From positions 3,480,001 to 3,512,000 of the forward strand of contig NC_014972.1 in assembly GCF_000186885.1 (NCBI RefSeq): a DNA stretch of 32,000 nt, written 5' to 3'. The notes beneath the pieces are model-generated. The model worked only from the letters and a program-made list of their open reading frames with translations, was not told the DNA's origin and did not search any database. Shown in pieces: positions 2,780 through 32,000 of this stretch. Each line of letters begins with the position of its first letter. Positions within the stretch are counted from its first letter, which is position 1. Source of the stretch: Desulfobulbus propionicus DSM 2032. Its GTDB lineage: Bacteria; Desulfobacterota; Desulfobulbia; Desulfobulbales; Desulfobulbaceae. The translations under genes and the position numbers were made by a program.

Positions 2780-3860
2780 GGACCACTCCCTCCTCCGAGG
2801 TCACCAGATAGACGCGCACCTCCAGGCCGGACCAGCGTTCGGCTTGGGTCTTGGCCCGACGGCAGACGGCGGTGATCAGATCGTCCCGGCCCCATTCCTT
2901 GAGTCGATCATAGATCTCCCGAGCCGTGTTGGCCGCGTGCAAGGTGGCAACGGCGGCTGTTTCCAGTCCGAGTTCTGCCAGCAGGTCGGCGGCCTGCCGT
3001 GTTTCCAGGGCACCGTTGCGCACATGGGTCTGGGGTACGGCCAGGGCCGCCTTGACCAGTTTGGCCCACATCTCGGCCAAATGGATGCGGGCAAAACCGT
3101 GTCGCCGGGCAGCCTCCAGGGCATAGAGCAGATAGTCGCCCATCATTACCTGGGTCTCCTCCGGGAGACCGAGCCGATGCTGCACCGCCGCCTCCGAGGT
3201 CCGGCCGGTGGCCAGGATCACCTCGGAGAGGCCGGCCGCCCGGGCTACCTGCATCGAGGCCTCGATGGTGTCGGTCCAGGCCTTGGCGGAAACGGGCCGG
3301 ACGATGCCGGTGGTGCCGAGGATGGACAGACCGCCGATCACCCCCAGCCGCCGGTTGAGAGTCTTCTCGGCCAGGGCCTCGCCGTCGCGGACAAAGATCG
3401 ACACCTCCACGGGGCGGAGCGGGCCCTCGTCGGCGGCCAGGGCTTCCGCCACTGCGGCCCGGATCATCTGCCGGGGCACGGGATTGATCGCCGGTTCGCC
3501 CACCGCGACCGGCAAGCCGGGCTTGGTCACCCGCCCAACACCCGGGCCGTTGACCAGCGTGATCGGCTCGTCCTGCGACTCGTCCAGCCAGCGGACCTCG
3601 GCCCCGATCTCCGCACCGTTGGTCACATCCGGGTCATCGCCCGCATCCTTGACCACCGTGGCCATGATCCGCTCCCCGTCGGTACGTCCAACGCGGCACA
3701 GGGCAAAACGGTGGCGCGAGCCGTCGGGAAAAGGAATTTCCACCGTCTGGGGTGTGTCCTGCCCCAGCAGGCAGAGCACCGCCGCCTTGGCCGCCGCCGC
3801 CGCACAGGCACCGGTGGTGTAGCCGCTGCGCAGCGCTTTTCGTTGCGAAGGTCGCTCCAT
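2766..3860 (-). CDS. cbiD: Cobalt-precorrin-5B (C1)-methyltransferase
   Basis: 364 aa. N-terminal 'LRSGYTTGACAAAAAKAA' and 'GTTGIVRPVS' are characteristic CbiD signatures. Confidence 0.9.
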   Translation of the reverse strand: MERPSQRKALRSGYTTGACAAAAAKAAVLCLLGQDTPQTVEIPFPDGSRHRFALCRVGRTDGERIMATVVKDAGDDPDVTNGAEIGAEVRWLDESQDEPITLVNGPGVGRVTKPGLPVAVGEPAINPVPRQMIRAAVAEALAADEGPLRPVEVSIFVRDGEALAEKTLNRRLGVIGGLSILGTTGIVRPVSAKAWTDTIEASMQVARAAGLSEVILATGRTSEAAVQHRLGLPEETQVMMGDYLLYALEAARRHGFARIHLAEMWAKLVKAALAVPQTHVRNGALETRQAADLLAELGLETAAVATLHAANTAREIYDRLKEWGRDDLITAVCRRAKTQAERWSGLEVRVYLVTSEEGVVHVTD

Positions 3861-3866
3861 GGTCCG

Positions 3867-4487
3867 TCAAGCCAGACGCAGCAGGGCGTTGACCGCGGCC
3901 ACCGCCACCGGCGTGCCGCCCTTGCGGCCCAGGGCGGTGATGAAGGGATAGGGTTTTGCCGCCAGCAGTTCCTTGGATTCGGCCGCGTTGACAAAGCCCA
4001 CCGGCACGCCGATCACCAGGTCCGGGGCAAAGAGCCCTTGGTCGATCAGTTCCATCACCTTGAGCAGGGCGGTCGGCGCGTTGCCCACGGCGACGATGCC
4101 GATATTGTCGTCGATGCTGCGGGCCATGGCCGCATCGGAGCGGGTGGTGCCGTTGGCCTTGGCCAGGGCCACGGTTTCCGCTTCCGCCACCCGGCAGATC
4201 ACCTGGCCGCCAAAACGGGCCAACAATCCCTTGGAAATACCGCTGGCACCCATGTTGACGTCGATGAGGATGTTCTTGCCGGCCCGGATGGCAGCCAATC
4301 CGGCGCTGATCGCCTGGGGATGAAACCGGAAGGTGTCGGCAAAGCCGAAATCGCCGGTGGCATGGATGGCGCGGCGGACCACGGCGAACTCCTCGGGCGA
4401 AAAGGTGGTGGGGCCGAGTTCACGCTCGATGATGCGAAAACTTTCGGTCTCGATATCCTGGGGGGCGATGGGTTGCAGGGTGACCAT
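3867..4487 (-). CDS. cbiC: Cobalt-precorrin-8 methylmutase
   Basis: 206 aa. 'VVRRAIHATGDF', 'VAVGNAPTAL' and 'VIGVPVGFVNAAESKE' match the CbiC/CobH family pattern. Confidence 0.9.
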   Translation of the reverse strand: MVTLQPIAPQDIETESFRIIERELGPTTFSPEEFAVVRRAIHATGDFGFADTFRFHPQAISAGLAAIRAGKNILIDVNMGASGISKGLLARFGGQVICRVAEAETVALAKANGTTRSDAAMARSIDDNIGIVAVGNAPTALLKVMELIDQGLFAPDLVIGVPVGFVNAAESKELLAAKPYPFITALGRKGGTPVAVAAVNALLRLA

Positions 4488-4544
4488 GTTTATTCAGGTT
4501 GTTGAGTGATTAAGATCGTAAGGTGTTCCAGCAGTAAATTGCAG

Positions 4545-5906
4545 TCAAAATGGCTCTCGCCCACACCCGGCCTTCCGACAAGCCGCCACAAACCGCTCCG
4601 CCACCGCAGGCGTCCGGCCCCAGTGGAGGTGGATGTAGCCGGCCAGGGTGTTCTTGTGGACATGGCCTTCGGATGCCCCGTTTTCCATGCGGTAGGCGGC
4701 GGGTACATCGGCACCGTCGGCATCGATGGTCGAGTAATGAAATTCATGCCCGTGGAGCACCGTGCCCGCAGGCGCCAGCAGACAGTCGTGTTCGACCCTC
4801 GGCTGGCGGTAGCCCAGGCTGCGCAGCCGGGTCTGCATGCGGGCCACAAAGGGATAGACACCGATCATGGGGAAGCAGGCGCCCTCGTGATCCAAGATGG
4901 CGGCGCACAGGTACATGAAGCCGCCGCATTCGCCATAGACCGGACGGCCGCTGGCGGCAAAGGCCCAGATCTGTTCCCGCATGGTGCTGTTGGCGCTCAG
5001 CTGGCTGGCATGCAGTTCCGGATAGCCGCCGCCCAGGTAAAGGCCGTGCAGATCCGGCGGTAGGTCCGGATCGTGGAGCGGACTGAACAGCACCAGTTCG
5101 GCCCCGGCCTCGCGGAGCAGGTCGAGGTTGTCCTCGTAGTAGAAGCAGAAGGCCGCATCCCGGGCCACGCCGATCCGTACCGGCGAGCCGGTGGCCACCA
5201 GGGGGGCATCGGACACCGGTGGCACGTCCCTCCGTTCGCCGGCAATGCGGAGCAGCAGGTCCAGATCGAGGTGCTGCTCGACTAGATGGATCAACCGTTC
5301 CAGTCCCTCGCCGCGCAGCGGGTGTTCCTCGCCCATGTGCAACCCCAGGTGGCGGGAAGGGATGTGCACCTCCTCGCTGCGGGGGAGAAAGCCGATGATC
5401 GGCACCCGGCAGTGGGCCTGAAGGGCCGCGGCCACCATGTTCCGGTGCTTGTCCGAGCCGATCCGGTTGCAGATGATCCCGGCCAGGGAGAGGTCCGGAT
5501 CGAGGGTGGCAAAACCATGGGCCACGGCGGCCACGCTTTCCGCCGCCGAGCGGACATCGATCACCAGCAGAACCGGCAACTTGAGCGTTTTGGCCAGGGT
5601 GGCCGCCGACCCCTCGCCACCGTCAAACAGCCCCATCACCCCCTCGACCACGGCGCAGCCCTCGGAGGCACCGTGACGGGCAAAGGTGCGGCGGACCCAG
5701 TCAGCCCCGCACATGCGCACATCGAGGTTGCGCGACGCTCGTCCGGTGACCATGCGATGCAGGCTGGGGTCGATGAAGTCCGGGCCGCACTTGAACGGCT
5801 GGACCACGATACCCCGCCGGGCCAGGGCCGCCATCACCCCCAGGGTGACGGTGGTCTTGCCGCAACCCGAATGGGTGCCGGCGATGAGCACGGCCGGCCG
5901 GCTCAT
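4545..5906 (-). CDS. cbiA: Cobyrinate a,c-diamide synthase
   Basis: 453 aa. P-loop-like 'IAGTHSGCGKTTVTLG', then 'KCGPDFIDP', and a C-terminal glutamine amidotransferase part ('GECGGFMYL'). Confidence 0.9.
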   Translation of the reverse strand: MSRPAVLIAGTHSGCGKTTVTLGVMAALARRGIVVQPFKCGPDFIDPSLHRMVTGRASRNLDVRMCGADWVRRTFARHGASEGCAVVEGVMGLFDGGEGSAATLAKTLKLPVLLVIDVRSAAESVAAVAHGFATLDPDLSLAGIICNRIGSDKHRNMVAAALQAHCRVPIIGFLPRSEEVHIPSRHLGLHMGEEHPLRGEGLERLIHLVEQHLDLDLLLRIAGERRDVPPVSDAPLVATGSPVRIGVARDAAFCFYYEDNLDLLREAGAELVLFSPLHDPDLPPDLHGLYLGGGYPELHASQLSANSTMREQIWAFAASGRPVYGECGGFMYLCAAILDHEGACFPMIGVYPFVARMQTRLRSLGYRQPRVEHDCLLAPAGTVLHGHEFHYSTIDADGADVPAAYRMENGASEGHVHKNTLAGYIHLHWGRTPAVAERFVAACRKAGCGREPF

Positions 5907-6823
5907 AGGCGGGTGATGCCTTCCTGACCGTAATCCGGGTAGAGCAGCGACTTGACGAAGCCGATGCCGTCGAGCAGCCCCAGGGTCGGCCGTGAGACCA
6001 TCTCTTCATCGACTAGGAACACTTGGCGCTCGCGCACCGCCTTGATCAGATAAAAACCCGGTTCCTTGACAATGTCATCGACGCTCACCGGATTCATCCG
6101 CCCGGACTGGGCCAGATAAAGGTCGATCTGCTCGGCCTTGGCCAGGATGCGCTCCTTGCCGTAAGCGGCGATATTGGTCTCGCGCATCCGCTCGGCATCG
6201 GTGGCGATGTTGACCCCGCCCGCCGACTCGAGCACGAACATGGCCATGGAAGTGGGGGCAAAGGTCTTCATCTGCTTGTGGATGGCCTCGAAGTAGACCC
6301 GTTTGCGTTTCTCCATCGGAATATCCTTCAGCGAGGCGGTGATTTCGGCCAACCGGGTGCCAAAAGTCTCGATCATGGCCTTGGCCTGGGCTTCCCGGCC
6401 GGTGAGCTTGCCCAGGTTCTCCCAGTAGACGAACAGCCCGCTGGCTTCGGTCGGCTGCAAGGACACGACGCGGACATTGTTTTTTTCGAGGATGCGCACC
6501 AGGTTGGGGTAGCCACGGCTGATCATCGGCCGAATCAGCACCAAATCGGGTTTGAGTGCCAACAGTCGTTCGGGATCGTCCTGGAACTGGACCACCGGCC
6601 GGCCGGGCAACCCGGCGTCGCTGGGGCCGCAGGCCACGATTTCCTTGTCCAAGCCGAGTTCGAGCAGATTGGTGGTGTGGGCCGGATAGAGGGAGATGAT
6701 GCGTTTGAAGGGCTGGTTGAAGACCAGGGTCCGATGCTCGCTGTCGGTGATCGAAGCGGCCGATGCCACGGAAACGAGGAGAAAGACAAGGCACTGGACG
6801 AAAAGCAAGACGTTGATGCGCAT
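5903..6823 (-). CDS. Periplasmic substrate-binding protein of a corrinoid/siderophore-type ABC importer (BtuF-like)
   Basis: 306 aa. Has a signal peptide ('MRINVLLFVQCLVFLLVSVASA'). 'IISLYPAHTTNLLELG' and 'KPDLVL' are typical of class III periplasmic binding proteins. Embedded in a B12-riboswitch operon. Confidence 0.8.
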   Translation of the reverse strand: MRINVLLFVQCLVFLLVSVASAASITDSEHRTLVFNQPFKRIISLYPAHTTNLLELGLDKEIVACGPSDAGLPGRPVVQFQDDPERLLALKPDLVLIRPMISRGYPNLVRILEKNNVRVVSLQPTEASGLFVYWENLGKLTGREAQAKAMIETFGTRLAEITASLKDIPMEKRKRVYFEAIHKQMKTFAPTSMAMFVLESAGGVNIATDAERMRETNIAAYGKERILAKAEQIDLYLAQSGRMNPVSVDDIVKEPGFYLIKAVRERQVFLVDEEMVSRPTLGLLDGIGFVKSLLYPDYGQEGITRL

Positions 6824-6841
6824 GGGTCGGGTGGGTTGAGG

Positions 6842-7660
6842 TTAGCGGTTGAGCGGCAGGCGAAAACTCACCTGACGACTGTTGGTGAAGGCGTTGGACC
6901 GAACCTCGGCCTCGACGCCGTACACGGCTTCAATGTTTTCCGGCGTCAGCACCTCCTCGGTCGGTCCCTGGCAGACCACCTGCCCCTGTTTGAGGAAGAT
7001 CAGCCGGTCACAGAAGAACGAGGCCAGGTTGAGGTCGTGCATGACCGCCACCACCTGCATCCCCTGCCGCTCGAAGCGGCCGCGGATCAGATGCAGGATC
7101 TCCAGGCTGTGGTGGATGTCGAGATTGGAGGTGGCCTCATCGAGCAGGAGCACCGCCGGTTTCTGGGCCAGGGCCCGGGCCACGGCCACCCGCTGTTTTT
7201 CGCCGCCCGACAAGCGGGTGACCGGCCGGTTGGCCAGGGCGGCGATGCCGGTGGCCTCCAGGGCCTCGTCGACCAGGACCTGGTCGGTTTCGCTGGGGGC
7301 GGCAAAGCGATGGAGGTGCGGATGCAGGCCCATCTCCACCACCTCGCGCACCGAATAGCCGAAGCGGACCATGAAATCCTGGGGCACCAGAGCCAGCTGT
7401 CGGGCGAGCTGCTTGCGCGGCCAGACATGGAGGGGGCGGCCCATGAACTCGATCATCCCCGAGTGCGGCATCAGCAGGCCGCCCATCAGGTCGAGCAGGG
7501 TGGTCTTGCCGCTGCCGTTGGGGCCGAGGATACCGTAACAGCAGCCACGGCGCAACTCCAGGCTGACATCGCATACCACCGGTGTCCCGTTGTAGCCGAA
7601 GTTAACCTTGGTCAGCGACCAGAGCAGTTCGCCTGATGGTTCAGAAATCGCTCTTGCCAT
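6842..7660 (-). CDS. ABC transporter ATP-binding protein (BtuD/FecE-like)
   Basis: 272 aa. Walker A 'GPNGSGKTT', ABC signature 'LSGGEKQR', Walker B 'LLLDEATSNLD'. Confidence 0.85.
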   Translation of the reverse strand: MARAISEPSGELLWSLTKVNFGYNGTPVVCDVSLELRRGCCYGILGPNGSGKTTLLDLMGGLLMPHSGMIEFMGRPLHVWPRKQLARQLALVPQDFMVRFGYSVREVVEMGLHPHLHRFAAPSETDQVLVDEALEATGIAALANRPVTRLSGGEKQRVAVARALAQKPAVLLLDEATSNLDIHHSLEILHLIRGRFERQGMQVVAVMHDLNLASFFCDRLIFLKQGQVVCQGPTEEVLTPENIEAVYGVEAEVRSNAFTNSRQVSFRLPLNR

Positions 7661-8681
7661 CCTGCTGTCGTCTCTTGAAAAGGATACAGAAGAAGGGGCC
7701 GCCCAGCAGCGCGGTGAGCACGCCGATCGGCACCTCCACCGGCAGCACCGCGCGGGTGAGGGTATCGGCGATCAGCAGCAACAGGCCGCCGGTGAAGAAG
7801 GACAGGGGAATCAACAGCCGGTTGTCCGGGCCGACCAGGTGGCGCAGCATGTGCGGCACGATCAGGCCGACAAAGCCGATGATTCCGGACACCGAGACTG
7901 CCAGCGCGGTCATCAGGGTGGCCACGGTGAGCAGGAGGGTACGCAGGCGGACGGTGTTGATGCCCAGCGAGGTGGCGGCCCGGTCGCCGGTGGCCATGAT
8001 ATTGAGATCGCGGCTGTAAAACACGCCCACCAGGGTGCCCAACAGGGCCGTGGGGGCCAGGAGGAGGATGTTCTGCCACGAGGCGCCGGCGAGGCTGCCC
8101 ATCAGCCAAAAAATGATCAAGCCGACCTGTTCGTCGGCCAGGAATTTAAGAAAACCGATGGCCGCCGACAGGATGGCGGCAACGATGACCCCGGCCAGGA
8201 TCAGGCTGGTCGAGGAGAGCCGCCGGTCGCCCGCGGCAAGAAAGAGCACCACCGCCAGCGTGCCCACGCCGCCGCCAAAGGCGAATACCGGAATGGTGAC
8301 CCCGGGCGGCAGGGCCAGACCGAAGATCTGGAGGACGATCACCAGCGAGGCGCCGAAGGCGGCGCCGGTGGAGATGCCCAGGGTGTAGGAGTCGGCCAGG
8401 GGATTGAGGAGGATGGCCTGGAAAACGGCGCCGCTGACCCCCAGCAAGCCGCCAACCAACACCGAGGCCAGAATCCGGGGCATGCGCACGTCGGCGACCA
8501 CGGTGGCGGCCACCGGATCAACAGCCGGCGGCATGGTGTGGCCGGCGAGTTTAGCCCAGAGGATGGCGAACACGTCCGGAATGGAGACGTCAAGGAAGCC
8601 GAGGGTGGCGGACAGGGCCACGGCAAAGACCAGCAACACGGTCAGCGGCAGCAGCCAGGTGGCGGCGGTCCGGCCATTCAT
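7641..8681 (-). CDS. ABC transporter permease, FecCD/BtuC family
   Basis: 346 aa polytopic membrane protein. 'DVRMPRILASVLVGGLLGVSGAVFQ' and 'TALLGGPFF' are FecCD-family hallmarks. TGATG overlap with the cbiK stop. Confidence 0.85.
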   Translation of the reverse strand: MNGRTAATWLLPLTVLLVFAVALSATLGFLDVSIPDVFAILWAKLAGHTMPPAVDPVAATVVADVRMPRILASVLVGGLLGVSGAVFQAILLNPLADSYTLGISTGAAFGASLVIVLQIFGLALPPGVTIPVFAFGGGVGTLAVVLFLAAGDRRLSSTSLILAGVIVAAILSAAIGFLKFLADEQVGLIIFWLMGSLAGASWQNILLLAPTALLGTLVGVFYSRDLNIMATGDRAATSLGINTVRLRTLLLTVATLMTALAVSVSGIIGFVGLIVPHMLRHLVGPDNRLLIPLSFFTGGLLLLIADTLTRAVLPVEVPIGVLTALLGGPFFCILFKRRQQDGKSDF

Positions 8682-10848: not shown

Positions 10849-12285
10849 CTACCGTGTTCGGGGGTGATCCAGGCCGCTCCTTTCGGCCAGCAGTTCCCGG
10901 CCGGTTTCGATCACCGCCCGAAAAAAGGTGTCGATCTCGGATTTGTCGACGTTGATGTTGGTAATCAGCAACCGCAGCACCAATTCGCCGTTGACGAACC
11001 CGGTACCGACCAGGCTGCGGCCGGTGCGGTGCATCCGTTCCCGCAGTTCCTGATTGAAGGCGGCGGCAGGGATAGGCGCGGGAGGACGGAAGCGAAAACA
11101 GACGTTGAACGACTCCCGGGGCACCACCATTTCCAGCTCTGCGGCCTGTTGCACCTGCGCCTCGGCATAGGCGCACAGCTCAAGATAGTGTTCCACCCGC
11201 TCGGCCAACCCCTCGCGGCCATAAAATTTCCAATCAAGAAACCATTTGAGGCTGTCCACCCGCCGGCCGCACTGGAGCGACTGGGTGCCCAGATCGCGGA
11301 TCTCGCCGTTGTCGCCCTCGCGGAAGATGTAGCTCTCATCGCCGGCGCTGCACACCTGGCGAAGAATATCGGGCCGCTGATTGAACAGCAGCACGTTGCA
11401 CATCAGGGAGGTGCCCAGCATTTTATGAAAGTCCAGGGTGAACGAGTCGGCCTGCTCCAGATGGGGCAAGAACCGGGCGCGCAGCCGGTCGCTAAACACC
11501 ACCGCTCCCCCCCAGGCGCCGTCGACATGCAGCCAGAATTTGTATTGATCGCGCAGGGCGATGATTGGCTGCAGCAGGTCATAGGATCCCCGCACCGTGG
11601 TGCCGGCGGTGGCGGCGACAAAAAAGGGCACCCCGCCTGCGGCGGTGATCTCGGCCAGTCGTTGTTCCAGAGCGTCCACCCGCATCCGGCCGTGATCGTC
11701 CACCGGCACCTTGAGCAGATGCTCCGCCCCCAAACCGAGAATGTTGGACGCCCGGTCCATGGAGTAATGGGCGTCGGCATTGACCAGGGCGAACAGCGGC
11801 GGCCGGCCGAACAACCCCTGCTGCTTGACCGCCGGATCGGCGTTGTTGCGCGCCGCCATCATGGCGATCATGTTGGCGTTGCTCGAACCGGTGGTCATCT
11901 GACCGGTACCGTTGTGAAAACCGACCAGTTCAAGCATGGTCCGCAGCAGGTATTTCTCCATCAGGGTGGAGACTGGCGCGGTCTCGTACGTGCAGGCCGA
12001 GGTGTTGGTGACGGCGGTCACCATCTCGCCGATCACCGACGGCAGGTTGGCCCCGGCCCACATCCGGTTGAGGTAGGCGGGATGGCTGGTCCTGACCGCA
12101 TGGGTCAGATATTTCTCTACCCAGGCGAACAGCTGGTCCCAGTCTCCCCGCACGCCGCTGTCCAGATCCAGCCGTTGCCGCAGCTCCTCGGGATCGAGAT
12201 AGTCAACAAAGGGTCCCGTCGCCCGCTCTTGGGAGTAGCGGGTGAGGATCTGCAGCAACCGCGCTAAAATTTTTTCCTGCTCCAT
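10849..12285 (-). CDS. PLP-dependent group II amino-acid decarboxylase (GAD/CSAD/PanP/DABA-decarboxylase family; substrate unresolved)
   Basis: 478 aa. 'GSSNANMIAMMAARN', 'HVDGAWGGA', and the PLP-lysine motif 'DFHKMLGTSLMCNVLLF'. Confidence 0.85.
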   Translation of the reverse strand: MEQEKILARLLQILTRYSQERATGPFVDYLDPEELRQRLDLDSGVRGDWDQLFAWVEKYLTHAVRTSHPAYLNRMWAGANLPSVIGEMVTAVTNTSACTYETAPVSTLMEKYLLRTMLELVGFHNGTGQMTTGSSNANMIAMMAARNNADPAVKQQGLFGRPPLFALVNADAHYSMDRASNILGLGAEHLLKVPVDDHGRMRVDALEQRLAEITAAGGVPFFVAATAGTTVRGSYDLLQPIIALRDQYKFWLHVDGAWGGAVVFSDRLRARFLPHLEQADSFTLDFHKMLGTSLMCNVLLFNQRPDILRQVCSAGDESYIFREGDNGEIRDLGTQSLQCGRRVDSLKWFLDWKFYGREGLAERVEHYLELCAYAEAQVQQAAELEMVVPRESFNVCFRFRPPAPIPAAAFNQELRERMHRTGRSLVGTGFVNGELVLRLLITNINVDKSEIDTFFRAVIETGRELLAERSGLDHPRTR

Positions 12286-13241: not shown

Positions 13242-14435
13242 CTACACGCGGACAATTTCCTCCGGCGCATGGGTCAGCACCTGCGGTCCGTCGGCTTGGA
13301 GCACAAAGGTGTTTTCCGTGCCGATGGCCCCTTCCGGGAAGACGAATTTCGGCTCCAGGGCAAAGGTCATGCCGGCGGCCAGGGGCATCTTTACCCCGGT
13401 GGCGAAGATCGGATACTCGTCGAGTTCCAGACCGACGCCGTGGCCGATGAAGCGCACCCGGTCGTTGCCCATGCCCATGAAATGGTCCGCCAGCCCCATC
13501 TGCTCGGCCAGTTCGACCGATTTGGCGTAGACCGTTTCACAGAGGACCCCGGGCTTGAGCATGCCCACCAGTTCGGCCTGGATGGCCAGCGCCGCCGCAT
13601 GGGCCTGGCGCAACCGCGCGGAGACATCGCCGAGGACAAACATCCGGGCGCCGTCGGCGGTGTAGCCGTTGATCACGCAGGTGTAGTCGATGTAGACGAC
13701 TTCGTTCTTGCCGATGGTCTTCCAGCCGGCGCCGTGCGGGTTATTGGCCGGGGTCAGGCCGCAGCCCCCCACCGGCCCGTCGAAGTAGGTAGGGGCGGCG
13801 CCACTTGATCCGGAGGTGACGTTGCCCATGAAGAAGTCCTGGTTGAAGGCGCGCATCTTGGAACAGCCGCCGTAGCCGCGTTTGCGCATCCCGGCCTCGA
13901 ACAGGCTGGCCAGTTCAATTTCGGTCATGCCCTCGCGCAGCCAGGAGGGCACCTCGGCAAAGACCTGATCGAGCACGCCGCAGGCGCGGTGGAGCAGATC
14001 GATCTCATAGGCGGATTTGATGGTGCGGAGGCGCCTGAGGACATCCGAGATGTCGGAGAAGGTGGTGTCGTTGAAGACCTTGGCATAGAACTGCCAGGTA
14101 TTGTAGGGGATGACATCCAGCTCCAGGCCCAGGGTCTCGATTGCAAACCCCCGATCCTTGAGCAGGTCGGGAATCGCCTTCAGGCTCTTCACCTCCAGGA
14201 TGGTGTCGATCGGCGACTCGGTGCAGGCCCGCTCGAAACTCTTGCGCACCATGAGAACCGGTTGGCCGGCGCGGGGGATGAACAGATGGCTCGATTGCGA
14301 GGTGCCGCTAAGATAGAACAGGTTGGTATGGTGGATGATCAGGGCGCCGTCGAGCCCCAGCTGCTCCAGGGTCTGCTGAAAGGTGGCGATGCGCGCGTCA
14401 ATCTCGCTTTTTGGCGTGTACAGCATGTCCGTCAT
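13242..14435 (-). CDS. M24 family metallopeptidase (Xaa-Pro aminopeptidase/creatinase-like)
   Basis: 'HGVGLELDEYP', 'DYTCVINGYTADGARM' and 'FALEPKF' form the pita-bread metal-ligand pattern, with a creatinase-like N-terminal domain. Start set at the ATG at 14435 ('MTDMLY'), which has AGGGGGA 8 nt upstream. The track ORF starts 11 codons earlier (14468). Confidence 0.85.
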   Translation of the reverse strand: MTDMLYTPKSEIDARIATFQQTLEQLGLDGALIIHHTNLFYLSGTSQSSHLFIPRAGQPVLMVRKSFERACTESPIDTILEVKSLKAIPDLLKDRGFAIETLGLELDVIPYNTWQFYAKVFNDTTFSDISDVLRRLRTIKSAYEIDLLHRACGVLDQVFAEVPSWLREGMTEIELASLFEAGMRKRGYGGCSKMRAFNQDFFMGNVTSGSSGAAPTYFDGPVGGCGLTPANNPHGAGWKTIGKNEVVYIDYTCVINGYTADGARMFVLGDVSARLRQAHAAALAIQAELVGMLKPGVLCETVYAKSVELAEQMGLADHFMGMGNDRVRFIGHGVGLELDEYPIFATGVKMPLAAGMTFALEPKFVFPEGAIGTENTFVLQADGPQVLTHAPEEIVRV

Positions 14436-14498
14436 GAAGAGGTCCCCCTGTGCGTGCGTTTGAAACAAACTCCCGGTTTGACAGCAAAGTTGCAGGCA

Positions 14499-15782: not shown

Positions 15783-15786
<4 letters not shown>
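14602..15786 (-). CDS. nspC: Carboxynorspermidine/carboxyspermidine decarboxylase
   Basis: 394 aa. 'TPAFVVDEGLL', PLP-lysine context 'ILLALKCFAM', 'INFGGGHH', 'GGLSCLAGD'. GTGA start/stop overlap with the upstream dehydrogenase gene. Confidence 0.85.
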
Positions 15787-16973
<1,187 letters not shown>

Positions 16974-25842: not shown

Positions 25843-25918
<76 letters not shown>

Positions 25919-27966: not shown

Positions 27967-28388
27967 CTTGATGCAAATATGGTTGGACAATGCCTCCGCA
28001 CCGACCGCCGTCGGCAAGGCTCCCACCGGTTGCGCGGAAACGCCCGGCAGCGCGATGACGGCGGATAATGGCTCCGCGTCTACCCTATCCACTTTCTTGC
28101 GATCCAACAAGCGTTCTCTCAGCCACTCTCCACGTCCTCTCCCAGGTGGGGTGTTGCCCTCTACGCAAAAACGTCGCCCGCTGCGGCCTTACACGCCATC
28201 TCATTGTTGGCAAAAAAGAGAAACGAACGAACGGCATTTTGAATGCCCGGCAAAAAAATGCAATTAACATTTTGAAAACGCGTGCCGATACCATACCATA
28301 CGGAAGGAATGCGGAGTTCTTTCCGAAAACAAACGGACGACGGATCCCATCGGAGGGGACGTCACAATCAATTCATAGGAGGAAATAC

Positions 28389-28934
28389 ATGAAAAAAACG
28401 TGGAAACGCAGTGCACTTCTCATGGGGACGGCAATGCTTGGGGCGATCGCCCTGTCTGGGACGAATGTGCAGGCAGGTGACGTGACCATGGACATCAATG
28501 TGGAAGTCAACTCAACGCTCACCGAAACTGCGACCAATATGGACTTTGGGACCATCGACCTCAACCCGGCCGGCGATACCGTCACCATCGATGCCACCGC
28601 GGGTTCGGCAACCCCGGCAACCACGGGAACATCGGTCATCACCGGCGGCACCAGCGGCACGATCACCGTGGCTTCGCCCAATGCCTTTACCATCACCGTC
28701 ACCTATCCTGCAACGGCAACCCTCAACGGTTCGGGCACTGCCGCGGGCGAGACCCTGACTGTCAGTGATATCGCCGCGAACTCCGAGGGCGGTAGCGGCA
28801 CTGTTGCAAAATCGTCAGGCCCCTCCCCAGGCTCGGATGCGGTCATTCACGTTGGCGGGGCAATAGTGTTCCCAGCGGACACGGTCAACGGCCCGTACAG
28901 CGGGACCATGACCATCACGCTCAACTATTCATAA
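28389..28934 (+). CDS. DUF4402-like secreted fimbrial subunit 1 (putative major subunit)
   Basis: ATG at 28389 with AGGAGG 7 nt upstream. Signal peptide 'MKKTWKRSALLMGTAMLGAIALSGTNVQA'. 'NMDFGTIDLNPAGDTVTIDA', 'FTITVTYPATATL', 'IHVGGAIVFPADTVNGPYSGTMTITLNYS' reproduce the layout I associate with DUF4402: L/M-x-F-G-x-I, then ...ItLP..., then ...vGGtL......G.Y.G...v.v.Y at the C-terminus. Confidence 0.65.
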   Translation: MKKTWKRSALLMGTAMLGAIALSGTNVQAGDVTMDINVEVNSTLTETATNMDFGTIDLNPAGDTVTIDATAGSATPATTGTSVITGGTSGTITVASPNAFTITVTYPATATLNGSGTAAGETLTVSDIAANSEGGSGTVAKSSGPSPGSDAVIHVGGAIVFPADTVNGPYSGTMTITLNYS

Positions 28935-29434
28935 TGCCCCTTGTGTTTCGGCAAAAAACGGCCAGGGCCCGCTCTTGGCGCGCCCTGGTCACCATGTTGA
29001 TGGGACCGCCTCTCCTTGCCGCTCCGCCCTTGATGGCCGGAGAGGTGGCCCACTTCACAAGCCTTGATTTCGGGACCATAGATCTCAACCCCGGTGGCGA
29101 CACCATCGTTATTGCCGCGCAGCATGGCCCCGCTTCGCCCACGGGCAGCCGTTCGGTGGTGGTGGGCGGCAGCAGCGGCCTGATGCAACTGACCTCCACC
29201 GAAGCGGAACATGTTGAAATCGTCTATCCGGAATCTGTCCTGTTGAGCTGTGGCGGCCGTTCGCTCAACATCACCAATATCGGCCCCAATTCACAGTATT
29301 CTCTTTCAGGAGTCGAGCTGCCCGGAGGGGGGGTGACCCGTTCGGTCAGTATCGGTGGGAGTCTTGCACTGCAGGGTAATGAAACCTCGGGCAGCTGCAG
29401 CGGCTCCATGTCCATCCAACTCAATTTCTTCTAA
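28934..29434 (+). CDS. DUF4402-like secreted fimbrial subunit 2 (paralog, putative minor/tip subunit)
   Basis: TAATG stop/start overlap with subunit 1. Signal-like 'RSWRALVTMLMGPPLLAAPPLMA'. 'SLDFGTIDLNPGGDTIVIAA', 'VSIGGSLALQGNETSGSCSGSMSIQLNFF' parallel subunit 1. No obvious SD. Confidence 0.55.
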   Translation: MPLVFRQKTARARSWRALVTMLMGPPLLAAPPLMAGEVAHFTSLDFGTIDLNPGGDTIVIAAQHGPASPTGSRSVVVGGSSGLMQLTSTEAEHVEIVYPESVLLSCGGRSLNITNIGPNSQYSLSGVELPGGGVTRSVSIGGSLALQGNETSGSCSGSMSIQLNFF

Positions 29435-29447
29435 AGCGGATTGTCCC

Positions 29448-30347
29448 ATGCCCAACATAGTCGCCCCTGTCGGAAAACAGAAATGGTTGCCTCTGGTTGT
29501 ATCGTTGATTGTCATCGGCCTTGTGCTGGTCGGTGCACGTTCCGCCCTGGCCGCGGCGAAAACGCTGATGCTCAATCCCGTTCGGGTCATCTTCACCGAT
29601 CGCCAGCGTACGGTGGAAGTCCATGTGATGAATCCAACCGAGGAAAGTATCACCTATGCCATTTCAACGGTGACCATGCGCAAGGATGGAAAAGGACAAT
29701 TGCAGGAAGTCACCGCCGAGAGCGAAAAAGAGCGTTCAATCAGGAGTATGGTTCGGTTTTCGCCCCGCCGGGCAACCATTGAACCCGGCAAGCGGCAGGT
29801 CGTCAAATTGATGGTCAACAAACCGGGGGATCTTGCCCCGGGTGAATATCAAACCCGTTTGCGGTTCAGCCCCCAGCCCACGGCAGCGCCAACCACGAAT
29901 TCCGGTGCTCCGGCCGCGCGCAAAGGCTCGCAATTTAACGTCGAAATTCTGGTTGACTCGACCATTCCCATCATTATCCAGCACGGGGGGATTGCCGCCG
30001 AGGTTGCCCCGCTTGCCTTGGCGATCAAGCAATCGGCGGACAGTCCCGCCGGAGTGGCCGCAGAGGTCAAGTTGTCGCGCAGCGGCAATGCCTCGGCGTT
30101 TGGCAATGTGTTCCTTCACTACGTGCCGGCCAATGATCCGAAAACCAGTCGTACAATTGGCCAAGCGCAAGGGGTTGCCATCTATCTTCCCGAGGTCGAG
30201 AAAAAAATGCTCATTCCCTTGACGGACATATCTCGCCAGGAGCTTTCCTCCGGGTCCATTCGCGTCTCGTTCCTGCCGGGAACGGGTTCCGCCAACCAGC
30301 GTGAGAATCTGGGACAAAAGGCGGTCAAGGACTTCCCGCTGCGCTGA
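29448..30347 (+). CDS. Periplasmic pilus-assembly chaperone (PapD-like, two Ig-like domains)
   Basis: Start at the ATG at 29448. TM/signal 'KWLPLVVSLIVIGLVLVGARSALA'. 'LMLNPVRVIFTDRQRTVEVHVMNPTEESITYAIS', 'VRFSPRRATIEPGKRQVVKLMV' and 'LAPGEYQTRLRF' match the PapD_N pattern: L-x-x-P-x-R-v, single-residue-spaced strands, P-p-x-x-l-x-P-G-x-x-q-x-v-r. Confidence 0.65.
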   Translation: MPNIVAPVGKQKWLPLVVSLIVIGLVLVGARSALAAAKTLMLNPVRVIFTDRQRTVEVHVMNPTEESITYAISTVTMRKDGKGQLQEVTAESEKERSIRSMVRFSPRRATIEPGKRQVVKLMVNKPGDLAPGEYQTRLRFSPQPTAAPTTNSGAPAARKGSQFNVEILVDSTIPIIIQHGGIAAEVAPLALAIKQSADSPAGVAAEVKLSRSGNASAFGNVFLHYVPANDPKTSRTIGQAQGVAIYLPEVEKKMLIPLTDISRQELSSGSIRVSFLPGTGSANQRENLGQKAVKDFPLR

Positions 30348-30372
30348 CGCTCTCCCTTCCCGCCAACGCGCA

Positions 30373-30414
30373 ACCCGGACCAGGCTGGCCATCGCCGCCT
30401 CTTCCGGGTTTTTT
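30373..30414 (+). terminator. Terminator after the subunit-chaperone operon
   Basis: ACCCGGA...AGGC...GCCT...TCCGGGT interrupted stem, followed by a T6 tract. Confidence 0.6.
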
Positions 30415-30494
30415 CTTGCACGGTTTGTTTTCTTTTTACGGTCCCCGCCGCACCGGGGAAAACGGCAAGGAGCTGGTGAGCCGGCAACGGATAC

Positions 30495-32000
30495 TCAAAT
30501 TTTATTTCGCTGCATATTTGCGTATTTTTGCGCGATCAATTTAGGGTTATACCCTGTCGGCATCCGGTTCGCGGGGAGGGTGGCGATGGGTTGCTGCTCC
30601 CTGGTGGAGTAGTTGACAGGGAGACTGAGCGCGGAACCGGTTCTGGGCCGCATGCGCGCGGCCAACCGGTCAGCCTCGTTCTTGACGCTGAAATCGCCGC
30701 AGGTGACTCGGTAATAGATCCCCTTTTCCTCACCCAGATCGACTTTTGTCACCCGTAGATCCTCGGCGCCGACAATGTCCGCCAGTTTTTGCGCAAGAAT
30801 CTGCATGCCTCTGCGCGCCGCCTCCATGGATTTATACGAGGCAAGATGGACGGCATAGGTGCCGGTGGTCCCGTTTTTTGTCGGCACAGCAGGTGGCTGT
30901 TCCGCTTTGCTGGCCGGTTGTGGGACGGGCGAGGGTATGGCGGCGCGCGTTTCGGTTTCGCGGCGCGCGACCCCGGCTTTGCCATTCGGGGCAGCATTGC
31001 CGGTACCTGTTTGGGCGGCGAAGGTGCTTGCCGCCAAGGTCAAGGGGGCAATGGAAAGAGTGGTTGTTTGTTTGGCGGAAGGCGGTGCGGATGGTTTGAC
31101 AGCGGCAAGGGCTTCATGCCCCATCCCTTGCCGGGTGTCGGAAGAACCGGGCGCGGAGGGGGCCGGTCTGTCGGCAGGCGCCTTGTCGCGATTCCTGTAT
31201 TCAGGTGGGGCAAGAATGATATCGTTGCCGCGGGCGATGGTGCCGTCGTTGTCGATGACAATCTGTTTTTGCCATTCGTCGACCGATTCCTTGAGGCGGG
31301 GATCGGTGCTGGAGGCCTGCAGTGTGTAGGTGCCAGGGAAGACTTTTTCAAACAGGTAGAATCCGTCGTATTCGGAAACGGTTTTTTGGACCTGCTTCCC
31401 CTGCTTGTCGAGCAGTTCCAACTGCACGTTGGCCAGGGGTTCCTTGACGCCCTCCCTGTTGGCAACGTACACCATGCCGTCGATTTCTCCGGTGGAAACA
31501 ACAGGAAAGTCGATGGAATGGACACTGCCCGAACGAGGCAGGACCGCCACGCCGGGAACAGCGGGTTGCCAGTGGGGATCTTTCAACGAATCCGGATCAA
31601 TTTCCACATCGGTTGGCTCGGAGGCGGCGAGCCCGGTGAATTGTGCAACGCCCTGATCATTGGTCCGGACATTTCTCCTGAGTTGCCTGGCCACCACCCT
31701 GACCTCGGGCAGGGGCGTGTCATCTTGATCAAAGACCTTGTTGTTGTTGGCGTCGTGATAAACAAACGCCGTCGTCGCGCCGCGGCCGGATCGTTTTTCC
31801 GATTTCACCACGATTTCCTCGCTCACCGGATCCTTCCCCAGGGAAAAGGAAAGGCCGAGAAAGGCACCAAAATTTCCTTCGGAATCGTACAGGAGACTGG
31901 GAGAAAGAATATATTGGCCAGTGTCGAAGTCAAGGCTGGCCCTGGCCGTGGTCAAGTCTTCCTGCAAATCGTCATCCACCTCGCGAATGACACTGGCGCC
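30495..32000 (-). CDS. Large envelope protein, C-terminal about 500 aa only (5' end outside the window): barrel-end strands, two beta-sandwich (usher-CTD/CarboxypepD_reg-like) domains, Pro/Ala-rich linker, SPOR domain
   Basis: The frame is open to the window edge. 'ASLDFDTGQYILSPSLLYDSEGNFGAFLGLSFSLG' has amphipathic beta-strand character. 'RTNDQGVAQFTGLAASEPTDVEIDPDSL' resembles the usher plug/CTD motif. 'VQLELLDKQGKQVQKTVSEYDGFYLFEKVFPGTYTL' is CarboxypepD_reg-like. The C-terminal 'YAVHLASYKSMEAARRGMQILAQKLADIVGAEDLRVTKVDLGEEKGIYYRVTCGDFSVKNEADRLAARM' fits a SPOR fold pattern. Confidence 0.6.
   Translation of the reverse strand, partial: GASVIREVDDDLQEDLTTARASLDFDTGQYILSPSLLYDSEGNFGAFLGLSFSLGKDPVSEEIVVKSEKRSGRGATTAFVYHDANNNKVFDQDDTPLPEVRVVARQLRRNVRTNDQGVAQFTGLAASEPTDVEIDPDSLKDPHWQPAVPGVAVLPRSGSVHSIDFPVVSTGEIDGMVYVANREGVKEPLANVQLELLDKQGKQVQKTVSEYDGFYLFEKVFPGTYTLQASSTDPRLKESVDEWQKQIVIDNDGTIARGNDIILAPPEYRNRDKAPADRPAPSAPGSSDTRQGMGHEALAAVKPSAPPSAKQTTTLSIAPLTLAASTFAAQTGTGNAAPNGKAGVARRETETRAAIPSPVPQPASKAEQPPAVPTKNGTTGTYAVHLASYKSMEAARRGMQILAQKLADIVGAEDLRVTKVDLGEEKGIYYRVTCGDFSVKNEADRLAARMRPRTGSALSLPVNYSTREQQPIATLPANRMPTGYNPKLIAQKYANMQRNKI

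What the first reader, a model, noticed from the sequence alone, without database searches (positions are those of the whole stretch)
30495..32000. Usher-like outer-membrane protein ending in a SPOR peptidoglycan-binding domain
The visible C-terminal about 500 aa reads as follows: terminal amphipathic strands; then two beta-sandwich domains (one with the usher-like 'TNDQGVAQFTGL..EPTDVEIDPDSL' motif); then an approximately 120-aa Pro/Ala/Ser-rich linker; then a clear SPOR-pattern domain. Classical ushers end with CTD1/CTD2 in the periplasm and have no cell-wall anchor. A SPOR domain binds denuded glycan strands, typically at division septa. It would tether the assembly platform to peptidoglycan, possibly localising it to septa or poles. 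I do not know of a described usher with this architecture.
Basis: partly seen in the sequence, partly recalled or inferred. Interest (0 to 1): 0.65.

Follow-up and report, generated by a model that had tools for sequence, protein, structure and literature searches.

The report
Pilus usher tethered to cell wall
The gene at the window edge encodes an outer-membrane pilus-assembly pore (usher fold) that carries a cell-wall-binding SPOR domain on a long flexible tail; it belongs to a widespread, unannotated chaperone-usher system built around DUF4402 proteins, and I found no paper describing an usher of this design.

Summary
Window 30495-32000 (-) is the last 501 aa of a 1233-aa protein. I read the full gene from an identical public contig. 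It is probably Desulfobulbus propionicus DSM 2032.

- **Usher fold.** AlphaFold gives pLDDT 85.6. The order is N-terminal domain, 6 strands, plug, 18 strands, CTD1, CTD2, a disordered Ala/Pro-rich linker of about 105-115 aa, a SPOR beta-alpha-beta-beta-alpha-beta fold and a terminal helix. The top 18 Foldseek PDB hits are all FimD or PapC ushers (E 8e-30 to 1e-15).
- **SPOR.** The domain passes Pfam's threshold.
- **Neighbours.** The convergent genes are two DUF4402 proteins and a chaperone whose model matches CsuC, CfaA, FimC and PapD.
- **Conserved operon.** In 80 genomes, 72 keep the chaperone and 69 keep DUF4402 genes, mostly in the order subunit-subunit-chaperone-usher.
- **Wall-binding modules recur.** C-terminal SPOR (one to three copies) occurs in several clades. 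Comamonadaceae members carry an N-terminal AMIN domain instead.

Caveats:
- Pfam's Usher model does not detect this protein.
- The Desulfobacterota clade has no signal peptide, only a conserved 115-aa N-terminal module of unknown function.
- Wall binding and fibre assembly are inferred, not shown.
- No literature was found on DUF4402 or on usher plus SPOR.

The parts
30495..32000 (-). The C-terminal 501 codons plus stop of the 1233-aa usher-like gene. The first 732 codons lie beyond the window edge and were read from L002:4634-8335(-).
   Evidence: The frame is open to the window edge. Window 28001-32000 is 100% identical to L002. The full ORF is given. The identical protein P0221 lies on a 3,851,869-bp contig.
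31833..32000 (-). The last three to four beta-strands of the predicted 24-strand outer-membrane barrel (fragment aa 1-56).
   Evidence: DSSP strands at model residues 608-618, 623-631 and 636-648. Foldseek matches the FimD and PapC translocation pores.
31494..31814 (-). CTD1-like periplasmic beta-sandwich (fragment aa 63-169). It contains the TNDQGVAQFTGL...DVEIDPDSLKDP motif.
   Evidence: Model strands 655-761. hhalign aligns this motif to FimD 734-793. Homologue P0080 passes Pfam's Usher cut-off over the equivalent stretch.
31212..31490 (-). CTD2-like transthyretin / CarboxypepD_reg beta-sandwich (fragment aa 171-263).
   Evidence: Pfam CarboxypepD_reg 48.8 bits (cut-off 32.3), plus SdrD_B and SpaA. 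Model strands 763-855.
30867..31208 (-). Disordered Ala/Pro/Thr/Ser-rich linker of about 114 aa (fragment aa 265-378).
   Evidence: pLDDT is below 50 for model residues 865-969. Composition is A 20%, P 16%, T 11%, S 8%. Length and sequence vary among homologues.
30615..30860 (-). SPOR domain (fragment aa 381-462).
   Evidence: Pfam PF05036 scores 24.8 bits against a cut-off of 21. The model shows a beta-alpha-beta-beta-alpha-beta fold with block pLDDT of 88-96. The profile's best solved-structure hits are the SPOR domains of CwlC, FtsN and RlpA. The tail is conserved in the family.
30498..30614 (-). C-terminal tail after SPOR, ending in a conserved helix (NPKLIAQKYANMQRNKI). Its function is unknown.
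   Evidence: Helix at model residues 1078-1092. The tail is conserved in P0001 and P0002.
29448..30347 (+). PapD-fold periplasmic chaperone (299 aa, with a signal-peptide-like N-terminal hydrophobic segment), convergent with the usher gene.
   Evidence: Pfam PapD_N is weak: 21.4 bits against a cut-off of 23. The AlphaFold model has pLDDT 86.2. Foldseek matches CsuC, CfaA, Caf1M, FimC and PapD at E 1e-10 to 1e-8 over both domains. Homologues are present in 72 of 80 related loci.
28389..28934 (+). DUF4402 protein A (181 aa), the putative polymerising subunit. After the signal peptide it has an N-terminal stretch of alternating hydrophobic residues (GDVTMDINVEVNS).
   Evidence: Pfam DUF4402 E 1.3e-14. 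The gene call comes from L001. The N-terminal extension pattern holds across loci.
28934..29434 (+). DUF4402 protein B (166 aa). It lacks the N-terminal extension and is a putative tip or terminal subunit.
   Evidence: Pfam DUF4402 E 2.1e-11. Its mature N-terminus is short, as in the chaperone-proximal genes of other loci.

Best explanation
The gene encodes the outer-membrane assembly pore (usher) of a chaperone-usher-type fibre system whose subunits are DUF4402 proteins.

Proposed mechanism:
- The PapD-fold chaperone next door would bring DUF4402 subunits to the usher's periplasmic N-terminal domain.
- Subunits would polymerise by donor-strand exchange. DUF4402-A carries a candidate donor strand and DUF4402-B does not.
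- The fibre would leave through a 24-strand barrel once the plug moves aside, with the two C-terminal sandwiches holding the fibre base.

This usher has an unusual extension. After CTD2 comes a flexible Ala/Pro-rich tether of about 105-115 residues, then a SPOR domain. SPOR is a module that in FtsN, DamX and RlpA binds peptidoglycan glycan strands stripped of their peptides. The tether would let the SPOR domain reach the sacculus and fasten the assembly platform to it. That could brace the platform mechanically, bias it to septa and new poles where denuded glycan is enriched, or both.

Shown here: the fold, the domain order, the SPOR match and the conserved operon. Inferred: fibre assembly, donor-strand exchange, peptidoglycan binding and localisation.
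For: **Usher fold.**
- The AlphaFold model has pLDDT 85.6. The order is NTD, 6 strands, plug, 18 strands, CTD1, CTD2, linker and SPOR.
- The top 18 Foldseek PDB hits are all FimD or PapC, with E 8e-30 to 1e-15 and 916 aligned columns against full-length FimD 3rfz_B.

**Chaperone.**
- The model (pLDDT 86.2) matches CsuC, CfaA, Caf1M, FimC and PapD.

**Operon.**
- 72 of 80 related genome loci have the chaperone and 69 of 80 have DUF4402 genes.
- The commonest order is D>D>C>U, seen in 26 loci.
- All 31 neighbour proteins tested are Pfam DUF4402.
- The first DUF4402 gene regularly has 12-15 extra N-terminal residues and the chaperone-proximal one does not.

**SPOR.**
- It passes Pfam's cut-off.
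- It reaches 47.9-57 bits in homologues.
- A profile of the tails hits the CwlC, FtsN and RlpA SPOR domains.
- The model has the expected fold.

**Selection for wall binding.**
- SPOR tails with one to three copies occur in Desulfobacterota, Rhodospirillales, Kiloniellales, Holophagales and Thiohalomonadaceae members.
- A Comamonadaceae clade carries an N-terminal AMIN domain instead, scoring 28.8 and 22.3 bits against a cut-off of 20.5.

**Organism.**
- D. propionicus is reported to produce fimbriae (PMC3072085).
Against: - Pfam Usher, PapC_N and PapC_C give no hit on this protein, even at E up to 5. Only 2 of 30 family members touch PF00577.
- hhalign of the family profile against FimD gives 1.4% probability.
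- The chaperone is just below Pfam's PapD_N cut-off. hhalign against FimC gives 3.2%.
- The DUF4402 profile matches no solved pilin by sequence, and its fold was not modelled.
- The protein and its whole Desulfobacterota clade lack a signal peptide. Export to the outer membrane is therefore unexplained.
- In the SPOR domain, the residue aligned to FtsN's glutamine in 'VQCGSF' is histidine.
- Public assemblies of this species often carry a 503-nt deletion or a 20-nt frameshift in the gene. The system is therefore dispensable in many strains.
- No experimental data exist.
Confidence: 0.7

Rival explanations
1. The barrel is a usher-fold pore, but the system does not build a pilus. It exports DUF4402 proteins that form a non-filamentous coat or capsule-like surface layer, comparable to Caf1 polyadhesin capsules or the Myxococcus spore coat U proteins. 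In that case the SPOR tether simply couples a coat-secretion site to the wall.
For: DUF4402 has no characterised member and no paper mentions it. The subunits are small (about 120-130 aa mature), and some loci carry one to seven paralogues. The DUF4402 profile shows no sequence link to solved pilins.
Against: The two-class subunit pattern (with and without an N-terminal extension) and the subunit-subunit-chaperone-usher order are typical of fibre-forming systems. The organism is reported to be fimbriate. Any chaperone-usher product is a linear polymer, so this rival differs mainly in morphology.
Confidence: 0.12
2. In this Desulfobulbus lineage the gene is a decaying or non-exported relic. Without a signal peptide the protein cannot reach the outer membrane, and the SPOR tail has no current function.
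For: There is no signal peptide, and the ORF is closed by a stop codon just upstream of the start. Most sampled assemblies of the species carry a 503-nt frameshifting deletion, and another carries a 20-nt deletion that cuts off SPOR.
Against: The signal-less N-terminal module is conserved at protein level across two orders. A profile of it finds 67 representatives, always at the extreme N-terminus of full-length proteins of 1050-1560 aa. That pattern indicates purifying selection, not decay. The intact 1233-aa allele recurs in several independent assemblies (six of the 15 cluster members listed are 1233 aa). The barrel, the CTDs and SPOR are modelled with high confidence from a conserved alignment.
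Confidence: 0.08
3. The C-terminal domain has the SPOR/RNP-like fold but does not bind peptidoglycan. It would instead act as a protein-protein module, for example docking a periplasmic or inner-membrane partner.
For: The Pfam score for the window's copy is only just above the cut-off (24.8 against 21 on the fragment, 22.3 on the full protein). The residue aligned to FtsN's glutamine in 'VQCGSF' is histidine. A conserved extra helix follows the domain.
Against: Homologous tails score strongly as SPOR, at 47.9-57 bits. The Ser, the aromatic residue and the Arg aligned to FtsN's 'GSF' and 'WNR' positions are kept, and the Arg and Gly of the 'YRVxxG' motif are nearly invariant in the tails. A different peptidoglycan-binding module (AMIN) has been recruited by another clade of the same family. 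Tandem multiplication up to three copies fits avidity for a polymeric ligand.
Confidence: 0.1

Closest known systems
Classical chaperone-usher ushers FimD and PapC (Pfam PF00577 with PapC_N and PapC_C)
   Same: The overall fold and domain order are the same: a periplasmic NTD, a 24-strand barrel with a plug inserted after strand 6, and CTD1 and CTD2. The operon also contains a two-domain PapD-fold chaperone and small secreted subunits.
   Different: About 11-14% identity. The protein is not detected by Pfam Usher, PapC_N or PapC_C. CTD2 scores as CarboxypepD_reg and the NTD weakly as Cu_amine_oxidN1 ('stalk'). The subunits are DUF4402 rather than Fimbrial. It has a C-terminal linker plus SPOR and an N-terminal 115-aa module, and this clade has no signal peptide.
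Archaic (sigma) chaperone-usher systems such as Acinetobacter Csu pili (CsuA/B, CsuC, CsuD)
   Same: Apart from an Enterococcus WxLIP chain ranked first (E 1.7e-10), the chaperone model's best structural matches are CsuC chains, with E about 2e-10. The systems are widespread in environmental bacteria and have small subunits. From my own memory rather than a test, the 'FG...' and C-terminal 'GxYxGxxxxTVxY' patterns also recall spore-coat-U pilins.
   Different: The subunits hit Pfam DUF4402 and not SCPU. No sequence match to CsuA/B was found among solved structures. As far as I know, CsuD-type ushers are recognised by PF00577 and have no peptidoglycan-binding module.
PilQ secretin of type IV pili, with N-terminal AMIN domains
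   Same: It is an outer-membrane fibre-exit channel fused to a peptidoglycan-binding module. From my own knowledge, those modules direct it to division sites and future poles. The Comamonadaceae members of this usher family carry exactly this kind of N-terminal AMIN domain.
   Different: It has a different channel fold (a secretin multimer rather than a monomeric 24-strand barrel) and serves a different fibre system. The window protein uses SPOR at the C-terminus, not AMIN.
SPOR-domain proteins FtsN, DamX, DedD, RlpA and CwlC
   Same: The same domain family by Pfam and by profile search against solved structures. As in FtsN and DamX, the domain sits at the C-terminus after a long Pro-rich or low-complexity linker.
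   Different: Those proteins are inner-membrane-anchored division proteins, lipoproteins or amidases. None is attached to an outer-membrane beta-barrel secretion pore.

Membership tests
Outer-membrane usher (FimD/PapC; Pfam PF00577 Usher, PF13954 PapC_N, PF13953 PapC_C) | Sequence match to the family HMMs above the curated cut-off | tested here: not met
   There was no Usher, PapC_N or PapC_C hit on the 1233-aa protein at E up to 5. Only 2 of 30 family members hit PF00577, the best being P0080 at 29.3 bits against a cut-off of 27.1. hhalign of the family profile against FimD gave 1.4% probability.
Outer-membrane usher (FimD/PapC; Pfam PF00577 Usher, PF13954 PapC_N, PF13953 PapC_C) | 24-strand beta-barrel with a plug domain inserted between strands 6 and 7 | tested here: met
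   The AlphaFold model has pLDDT 85.6. It shows six long strands, a six-strand globular insert (model residues 276-344, carrying the invariant GW[DE]VELY motif), then 18 strands. Foldseek matches the PapC and FimD translocation pores 2vqi and 3ohn at E 1e-15 to 2e-16. This rests on a prediction only. The strand count comes from DSSP, not from inspecting coordinates.
Outer-membrane usher (FimD/PapC; Pfam PF00577 Usher, PF13954 PapC_N, PF13953 PapC_C) | Periplasmic NTD plus two C-terminal beta-sandwich domains | tested here: met
   The model has an NTD at residues 1-125, CTD1 at 655-761 and CTD2 at 763-855. Foldseek aligns 916 columns with full-length FimD 3rfz_B at E 8e-30.
Outer-membrane usher (FimD/PapC; Pfam PF00577 Usher, PF13954 PapC_N, PF13953 PapC_C) | Encoded next to a PapD-fold chaperone and secreted subunits | tested here: met
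   In the window the genes are DUF4402, DUF4402, chaperone, then the convergent usher. Of 80 loci, 72 have the chaperone and 69 have DUF4402 genes, and D>D>C>U is the commonest order. The chaperone fold matches CsuC, FimC and PapD.
Outer-membrane usher (FimD/PapC; Pfam PF00577 Usher, PF13954 PapC_N, PF13953 PapC_C) | N-terminal Sec signal peptide | tested here: not met
   There is no hydrophobic N-terminal segment, and a stop codon lies just upstream of the TTG start. The same holds for the whole Desulfobacterota clade, whereas other clades have normal signal peptides. No dedicated signal-peptide predictor was available.
Outer-membrane usher (FimD/PapC; Pfam PF00577 Usher, PF13954 PapC_N, PF13953 PapC_C) | Catalyses donor-strand exchange and secretes a fibre | not testable with these tools
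   The only evidence is indirect: the two-class N-terminal pattern of the DUF4402 genes and the report that the organism is fimbriate.
SPOR domain (Pfam PF05036) | HMM score above the gathering cut-off | tested here: met
   24.8 bits on the window fragment and 22.3-22.4 bits on the full protein, against a cut-off of 21. Homologous tails score 47.9-57 bits.
SPOR domain (Pfam PF05036) | Beta-alpha-beta-beta-alpha-beta (RNP-like) fold of about 70-80 residues | tested here: met
   DSSP gives E973-981, H984-997, E1007-1013, E1020-1029, H1032-1046 and E1050-1054, with block pLDDT of 88-96. The domain was not searched structurally on its own.
SPOR domain (Pfam PF05036) | Conserved sheet residues needed for glycan binding. 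In FtsN these are Q251, S254, W283 and R285 (numbering from my own memory of the published mutagenesis, not checked here). | tested here: inconclusive
   The alignment to the FtsN SPOR domain 1uta places window H/S/Y/R at those positions: 'VHLASY' against 'VQCGSF', and 'YYRV' against 'WNRV'. Other family members have Q at the first position. In the alignment of the tails the Arg and the Gly of the 'YRVxxG' motif are nearly invariant.
SPOR domain (Pfam PF05036) | Binds denuded peptidoglycan and localises to septa | not testable with these tools
   This needs a sacculus pull-down and a fluorescent fusion.
PapD-like periplasmic chaperone (Pfam PF00345 / PF02753) | HMM match above the cut-off | tested here: inconclusive
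   PapD_N scores 21.4 bits against a cut-off of 23, E 2.7e-4. hhalign against FimC gives 3.2% probability, but the alignment is in register over the N-terminal 'TRV...N' motif.
PapD-like periplasmic chaperone (Pfam PF00345 / PF02753) | Two Ig-like domains in the boomerang arrangement of the chaperone fold | tested here: met
   The model has pLDDT 86.2. Foldseek gives 260-280 aligned columns with CsuC, CfaA, Caf1M, DraB, FimC and PapD at E 1e-10 to 1e-8.
Archaic (sigma) chaperone-usher class (Csu / spore-coat-U type) | Subunits carry the SCPU domain (PF05229) | tested here: not met
   All 31 neighbour subunits hit DUF4402 (PF14352) and none hits SCPU at E up to 0.1. There was no sequence hit to solved Csu subunits.

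The most novel reading that the evidence does not exclude
DUF4402 systems would be a previously unrecognised, widespread class of chaperone-usher machinery whose ushers have repeatedly acquired peptidoglycan-binding modules (C-terminal SPOR or N-terminal AMIN). If so, fibre assembly is placed at the division septum or new pole through the cell wall. In addition, the Desulfobacterota ushers would reach the outer membrane without a Sec signal peptide, using the conserved 115-aa N-terminal module as a new kind of export or targeting device.
Probability: 0.15. Interest if true: 0.85.

Novelty: new variant of a known kind. Interest (0 to 1): 0.6.

Why it matters
Chaperone-usher pili are a textbook model of energy-independent secretion. 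Their ushers are described as free-standing outer-membrane pores with no link to the cell wall.

This family shows a usher-fold pore fused to wall-binding modules. It is present in at least about 590 species representatives, and current annotation does not call it a usher. NCBI names it 'stalk domain-containing', 'SPOR domain-containing' or 'carboxypeptidase-like regulatory domain-containing' protein.

If the SPOR tether works as inferred, it gives a testable route to two things. One is spatial control of chaperone-usher assembly (septal or polar placement). The other is mechanical anchoring of a fibre base to the sacculus, parallel to what AMIN domains do for the type IV pilus secretin.

The finding also gives DUF4402, a domain with no literature, a concrete predicted role. 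Finally, it raises a sharp question about how an outer-membrane barrel without a signal peptide is exported in Desulfobacterota.

Tried and rejected
- **Sequence-level usher membership did not succeed.** Pfam on the full protein, hmmsearch of the family profile against PDB sequences (only SdrD and NOMO transthyretin-like hits) and hhalign against FimD all failed to detect a usher. Only fold and context do.
- **Chaperone by sequence.** hhalign of the chaperone profile against FimC gave 3.2%. The profile against PDB sequences gave no hits. The chaperone was resolved only by structure prediction.
- **DUF4402 profile against PDB.** Nothing meaningful was found.
- **N-terminal 115-aa module.** It has no Pfam family. 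A profile search of 1.84 billion representatives found it only on these proteins, so no functional lead emerged.
- **Rfam on the locus.** The search returned a tRNA and a sub-threshold c-di-GMP-I-GGC match (23.3 bits against a cut-off of 59). That match is on the wrong strand inside a DUF4402 gene, so I treated it as chance.
- **Promoter and terminator scan of 28000-30700.** Terminator-like sites were no more frequent than in shuffled sequence (3 against a mean of 4.1). Two weak promoter-like sites were found (shuffle mean 0.7, sd 0.9); I drew nothing from them.
- **'Soluble periplasmic multidomain protein'.** Rejected because of the confidently predicted barrel and the usher matches.
- **Assembly or frameshift artefact.** Considered because one MAG splits the gene into 587 + 438 aa. 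Rejected because the window is identical to the intact allele, and the split is a real 503-nt deletion between CCAGGG microhomologies.
- **Literature searches.** 'DUF4402', 'PF14352', 'usher + SPOR domain', 'chaperone-usher + carboxypeptidase regulatory' and 'usher + AMIN/peptidoglycan-binding' returned nothing relevant.
Full report
**What is in the window**

On the minus strand an open frame runs from the window edge (32000) to a stop at 30495-30497. It has 501 codons and no internal stop. Pfam finds CarboxypepD_reg (48.8 bits, cut-off 32.3), SdrD_B and SpaA over fragment residues about 186-251. It also finds SPOR (PF05036, 24.8 bits, cut-off 21) at residues 379-451. The 114 residues before the SPOR domain are 20% Ala, 16% Pro, 11% Thr and 8% Ser.

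**The rest of the gene**

A look-up of the neighbouring DUF4402 protein returned six public contigs. One of them, L002, is 100% identical to window 28001-32000 and carries an intact 1233-aa ORF. The identical protein (P0221) and the identical chaperone (P0214) lie on a contig of 3,851,869 bp. That is exactly the published genome size of Desulfobulbus propionicus DSM 2032, an organism reported to produce fimbriae (PMC3072085). The organism assignment is an inference from that size match and from Desulfobulbus being the nearest named relatives.

**Is it a usher?**

By sequence it is not. Pfam Usher, PapC_N and PapC_C do not hit the full protein. Only 2 of 30 family members touch PF00577. A family profile finds only transthyretin-like domains among PDB sequences. 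hhalign against FimD gives 1.4% probability.

By fold it is. I modelled residues 141-1233 with AlphaFold, using a 79-sequence alignment (pLDDT 85.6, pTM 0.67). The model shows:
- an N-terminal domain;
- six long strands;
- a six-strand insert carrying the family's invariant GW[DE]VELY motif;
- eighteen further strands, making 24 in all;
- two beta-sandwiches;
- a disordered stretch (model residues 865-969);
- a beta-alpha-beta-beta-alpha-beta domain;
- a terminal helix.

The top 18 Foldseek hits in the PDB are all FimD or PapC. E-values run from 8e-30 to 1e-15, with 916 aligned columns against full-length FimD. Other barrels (LptD, Occ porins, FrpB) score 1e-6 or worse.

**Context**

Convergent with the gene are two DUF4402 genes (28389-28934 and 28934-29434) and a 299-aa gene (29448-30347). 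That last gene is weakly PapD_N-like by Pfam. Its AlphaFold model (pLDDT 86.2) matches chaperone-usher chaperones over both domains: CsuC, CfaA, YadV, Caf1M, DraB, FimC and PapD, at E 1e-10 to 1e-8.

A scan of one genome per species found at least 592 loci encoding relatives, across these groups:
- Desulfobulbales and Desulfobacterales
- Rhodospirillales
- Massilia and Polaromonas
- Halomonas and Vibrio
- Thermoanaerobaculia
- Fibrobacteraceae
- other groups

In the best 80 loci, profile searches found the chaperone in 72 and DUF4402 genes in 69. The commonest order was DUF4402-DUF4402-chaperone-usher, in 26 loci. The Desulfobulbales loci have the convergent arrangement seen in the window. All 31 sampled neighbour proteins are Pfam DUF4402 and none is SCPU.

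The first DUF4402 gene of an operon typically has 12-15 extra residues between the signal peptide and the conserved 'FG' strand. In the window these are GDVTMDINVEVNS, with alternating hydrophobic residues. The gene next to the chaperone lacks them. This is the pattern expected for a polymerising subunit with a donor strand and a tip subunit without one. That reading is an inference.

**The SPOR domain**

Homologous tails score much higher than the window's copy: P0032 at 47.9 bits, L012 at 57 bits and L026 at 56.9 bits. A profile of 24 tails has SPOR domains as its best solved-structure matches. CwlC scores E 8e-4, FtsN 0.014 and RlpA 0.3. The alignment to FtsN keeps the Ser, the aromatic residue and the Arg aligned to FtsN's 'GSF' and 'WNR' positions. 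The window has His where FtsN has Gln.

A family-specific HMM finds the tail in these groups:
- all Desulfobulbales members with a complete C-terminus, except D. alkaliphilus;
- Desulfobacterales loci L012, L014 and L015, as three tandem copies;
- a Rhodospirillales clade, as one copy;
- Kiloniellales and Holophagales members, as two copies.

On a neighbour-joining tree of the core region the distribution is patchy, which suggests several gains or losses. A Comamonadaceae clade (10 of 80 loci) has instead an N-terminal AMIN domain. Pfam gives 28.8 and 22.3 bits against a cut-off of 20.5. Two unrelated peptidoglycan-binding modules have thus been recruited at opposite ends of the same usher family. 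This is the strongest indirect argument that wall attachment is functionally selected.

**Mechanism**

The most likely reading is a chaperone-usher machine for DUF4402 fibres whose pore is fastened to the sacculus. The flexible tether of roughly 105-115 residues is long enough to bridge the periplasm between the outer membrane and the peptidoglycan layer. That estimate is an inference from general geometry. SPOR domains in FtsN, DamX and RlpA bind denuded glycan, which is enriched at septa (established knowledge). The tether could therefore bias assembly to septa and new poles, brace the platform against pulling forces, or both. Nothing here distinguishes these options.

**Caveats**

The window protein and all its Desulfobacterota relatives have no signal peptide. 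The ORF is closed by a stop two codons before the conserved non-ATG start. The first 115 or so residues form a conserved hydrophilic module that matches no Pfam family. A profile search of 1.84 billion representatives finds this module 67 times, at or near the extreme N-terminus of every long (1050-1560 aa) protein hit; shorter hits look like fragments. Relatives in other phyla have ordinary signal peptides directly before the NTD. How this barrel would be exported is unexplained.

Several assemblies of the same species, including an NCBI MAG, carry a 503-nt frameshifting deletion in the barrel between CCAGGG microhomologies. Another carries a 20-nt deletion between GCGGCGCGCG repeats that separates SPOR from the usher. 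The system is therefore often lost in nature.

**Novelty**

Full-text searches found no paper containing 'DUF4402' or 'PF14352'. They also found none linking a usher to SPOR, AMIN or another peptidoglycan-binding domain. Database names do not call the protein a usher. I rate it a new variant of a known kind. It is a chaperone-usher system by fold and operon logic. Its subunit family is uncharacterised, its usher is invisible to the standard HMM, and it carries wall-binding modules.

Noticed in passing
L002:7916-8335 (-), just beyond the window edge; protein residues 1-140: The usher-like protein starts with a conserved hydrophilic module of about 115 aa (FDASLxxEQADxLLRQTDQYAQWQRLRQ...INWQxFDxLT) followed by a Pro-rich linker. 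It has no signal peptide and its start codon is conserved and non-ATG. The module occurs only at or near the N-terminus of these Desulfobacterota proteins (67 representatives) and matches no Pfam family.
   Followed up: partly
window about 31946 and beyond the edge; L001:12882-12999, and likewise L003, L005 and L006: Four of the six contigs returned for this species, including NCBI MAG GCA_029267735.1, carry a 503-nt deletion in the barrel region between CCAGGG(G/C)CAG microhomologies. It splits the gene into 587-aa and 438-aa ORFs. The window has the intact allele.
   Followed up: yes
window about 30940-30959 (equivalent to L004:4924-4948): One assembly (L004) has a 20-nt deletion between direct GCGGCGCGCG repeats in the linker. 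The resulting frameshift leaves the SPOR domain on a separate 103-aa ORF.
   Followed up: yes
window 28389-28934 versus 28934-29434, and the D genes of L008-L086: DUF4402 genes come in two kinds. The operon-first gene has 12-15 extra N-terminal residues after the signal peptide (window: GDVTMDINVEVNS, alternating hydrophobic residues). The chaperone-proximal gene lacks them. This looks like a major subunit with a donor strand and a tip subunit without one.
   Followed up: partly
window 30498-30545 (-): A conserved amphipathic helix (NPKLIAQKYANMQRNKI) follows the SPOR domain at the extreme C-terminus. It is conserved in close homologues (P0001, P0002). Its function is unknown.
   Followed up: no
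L012:5932-9930, L014 and L015 (Desulfobacterales MAGs); L026 and L043: Relatives carry two or three tandem SPOR domains at the C-terminus rather than one.
   Followed up: partly
L054, L063, L065, L068, L076, L078, L080, L081, L085, L086; P0041-P0048, P0056: Comamonadaceae-type members (Polaromonas, Rhodoferax) have an N-terminal AMIN domain in front of the usher NTD and no SPOR domain.
   Followed up: partly
L002:8509-9609 (-), immediately upstream of the usher gene and outside the window: The gene upstream of the usher encodes a cNMP_binding + PatA_N protein of 366 aa. It could be a regulator of the locus.
   Followed up: no
window 783-8681 (-): This stretch holds a cobalamin biosynthesis and transport cluster: two TP_methylase genes, CbiD, a CobB/CobQ-like amidotransferase, a periplasmic binding protein and a FecCD permease. 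It looks ordinary.
   Followed up: no
window 10849-12285 (-) and 15783-16973 (-): A PLP-dependent decarboxylase and a saccharopine-dehydrogenase-like gene lie here. The pair suggests a polyamine (carboxynorspermidine-type) pathway. An M24 peptidase lies at 13242-14468.
   Followed up: no
window 25843-25918 (+): A tRNA-Lys (CTT) gene lies between the CorC-like gene and a 162-aa ORF with no Pfam match.
   Followed up: no
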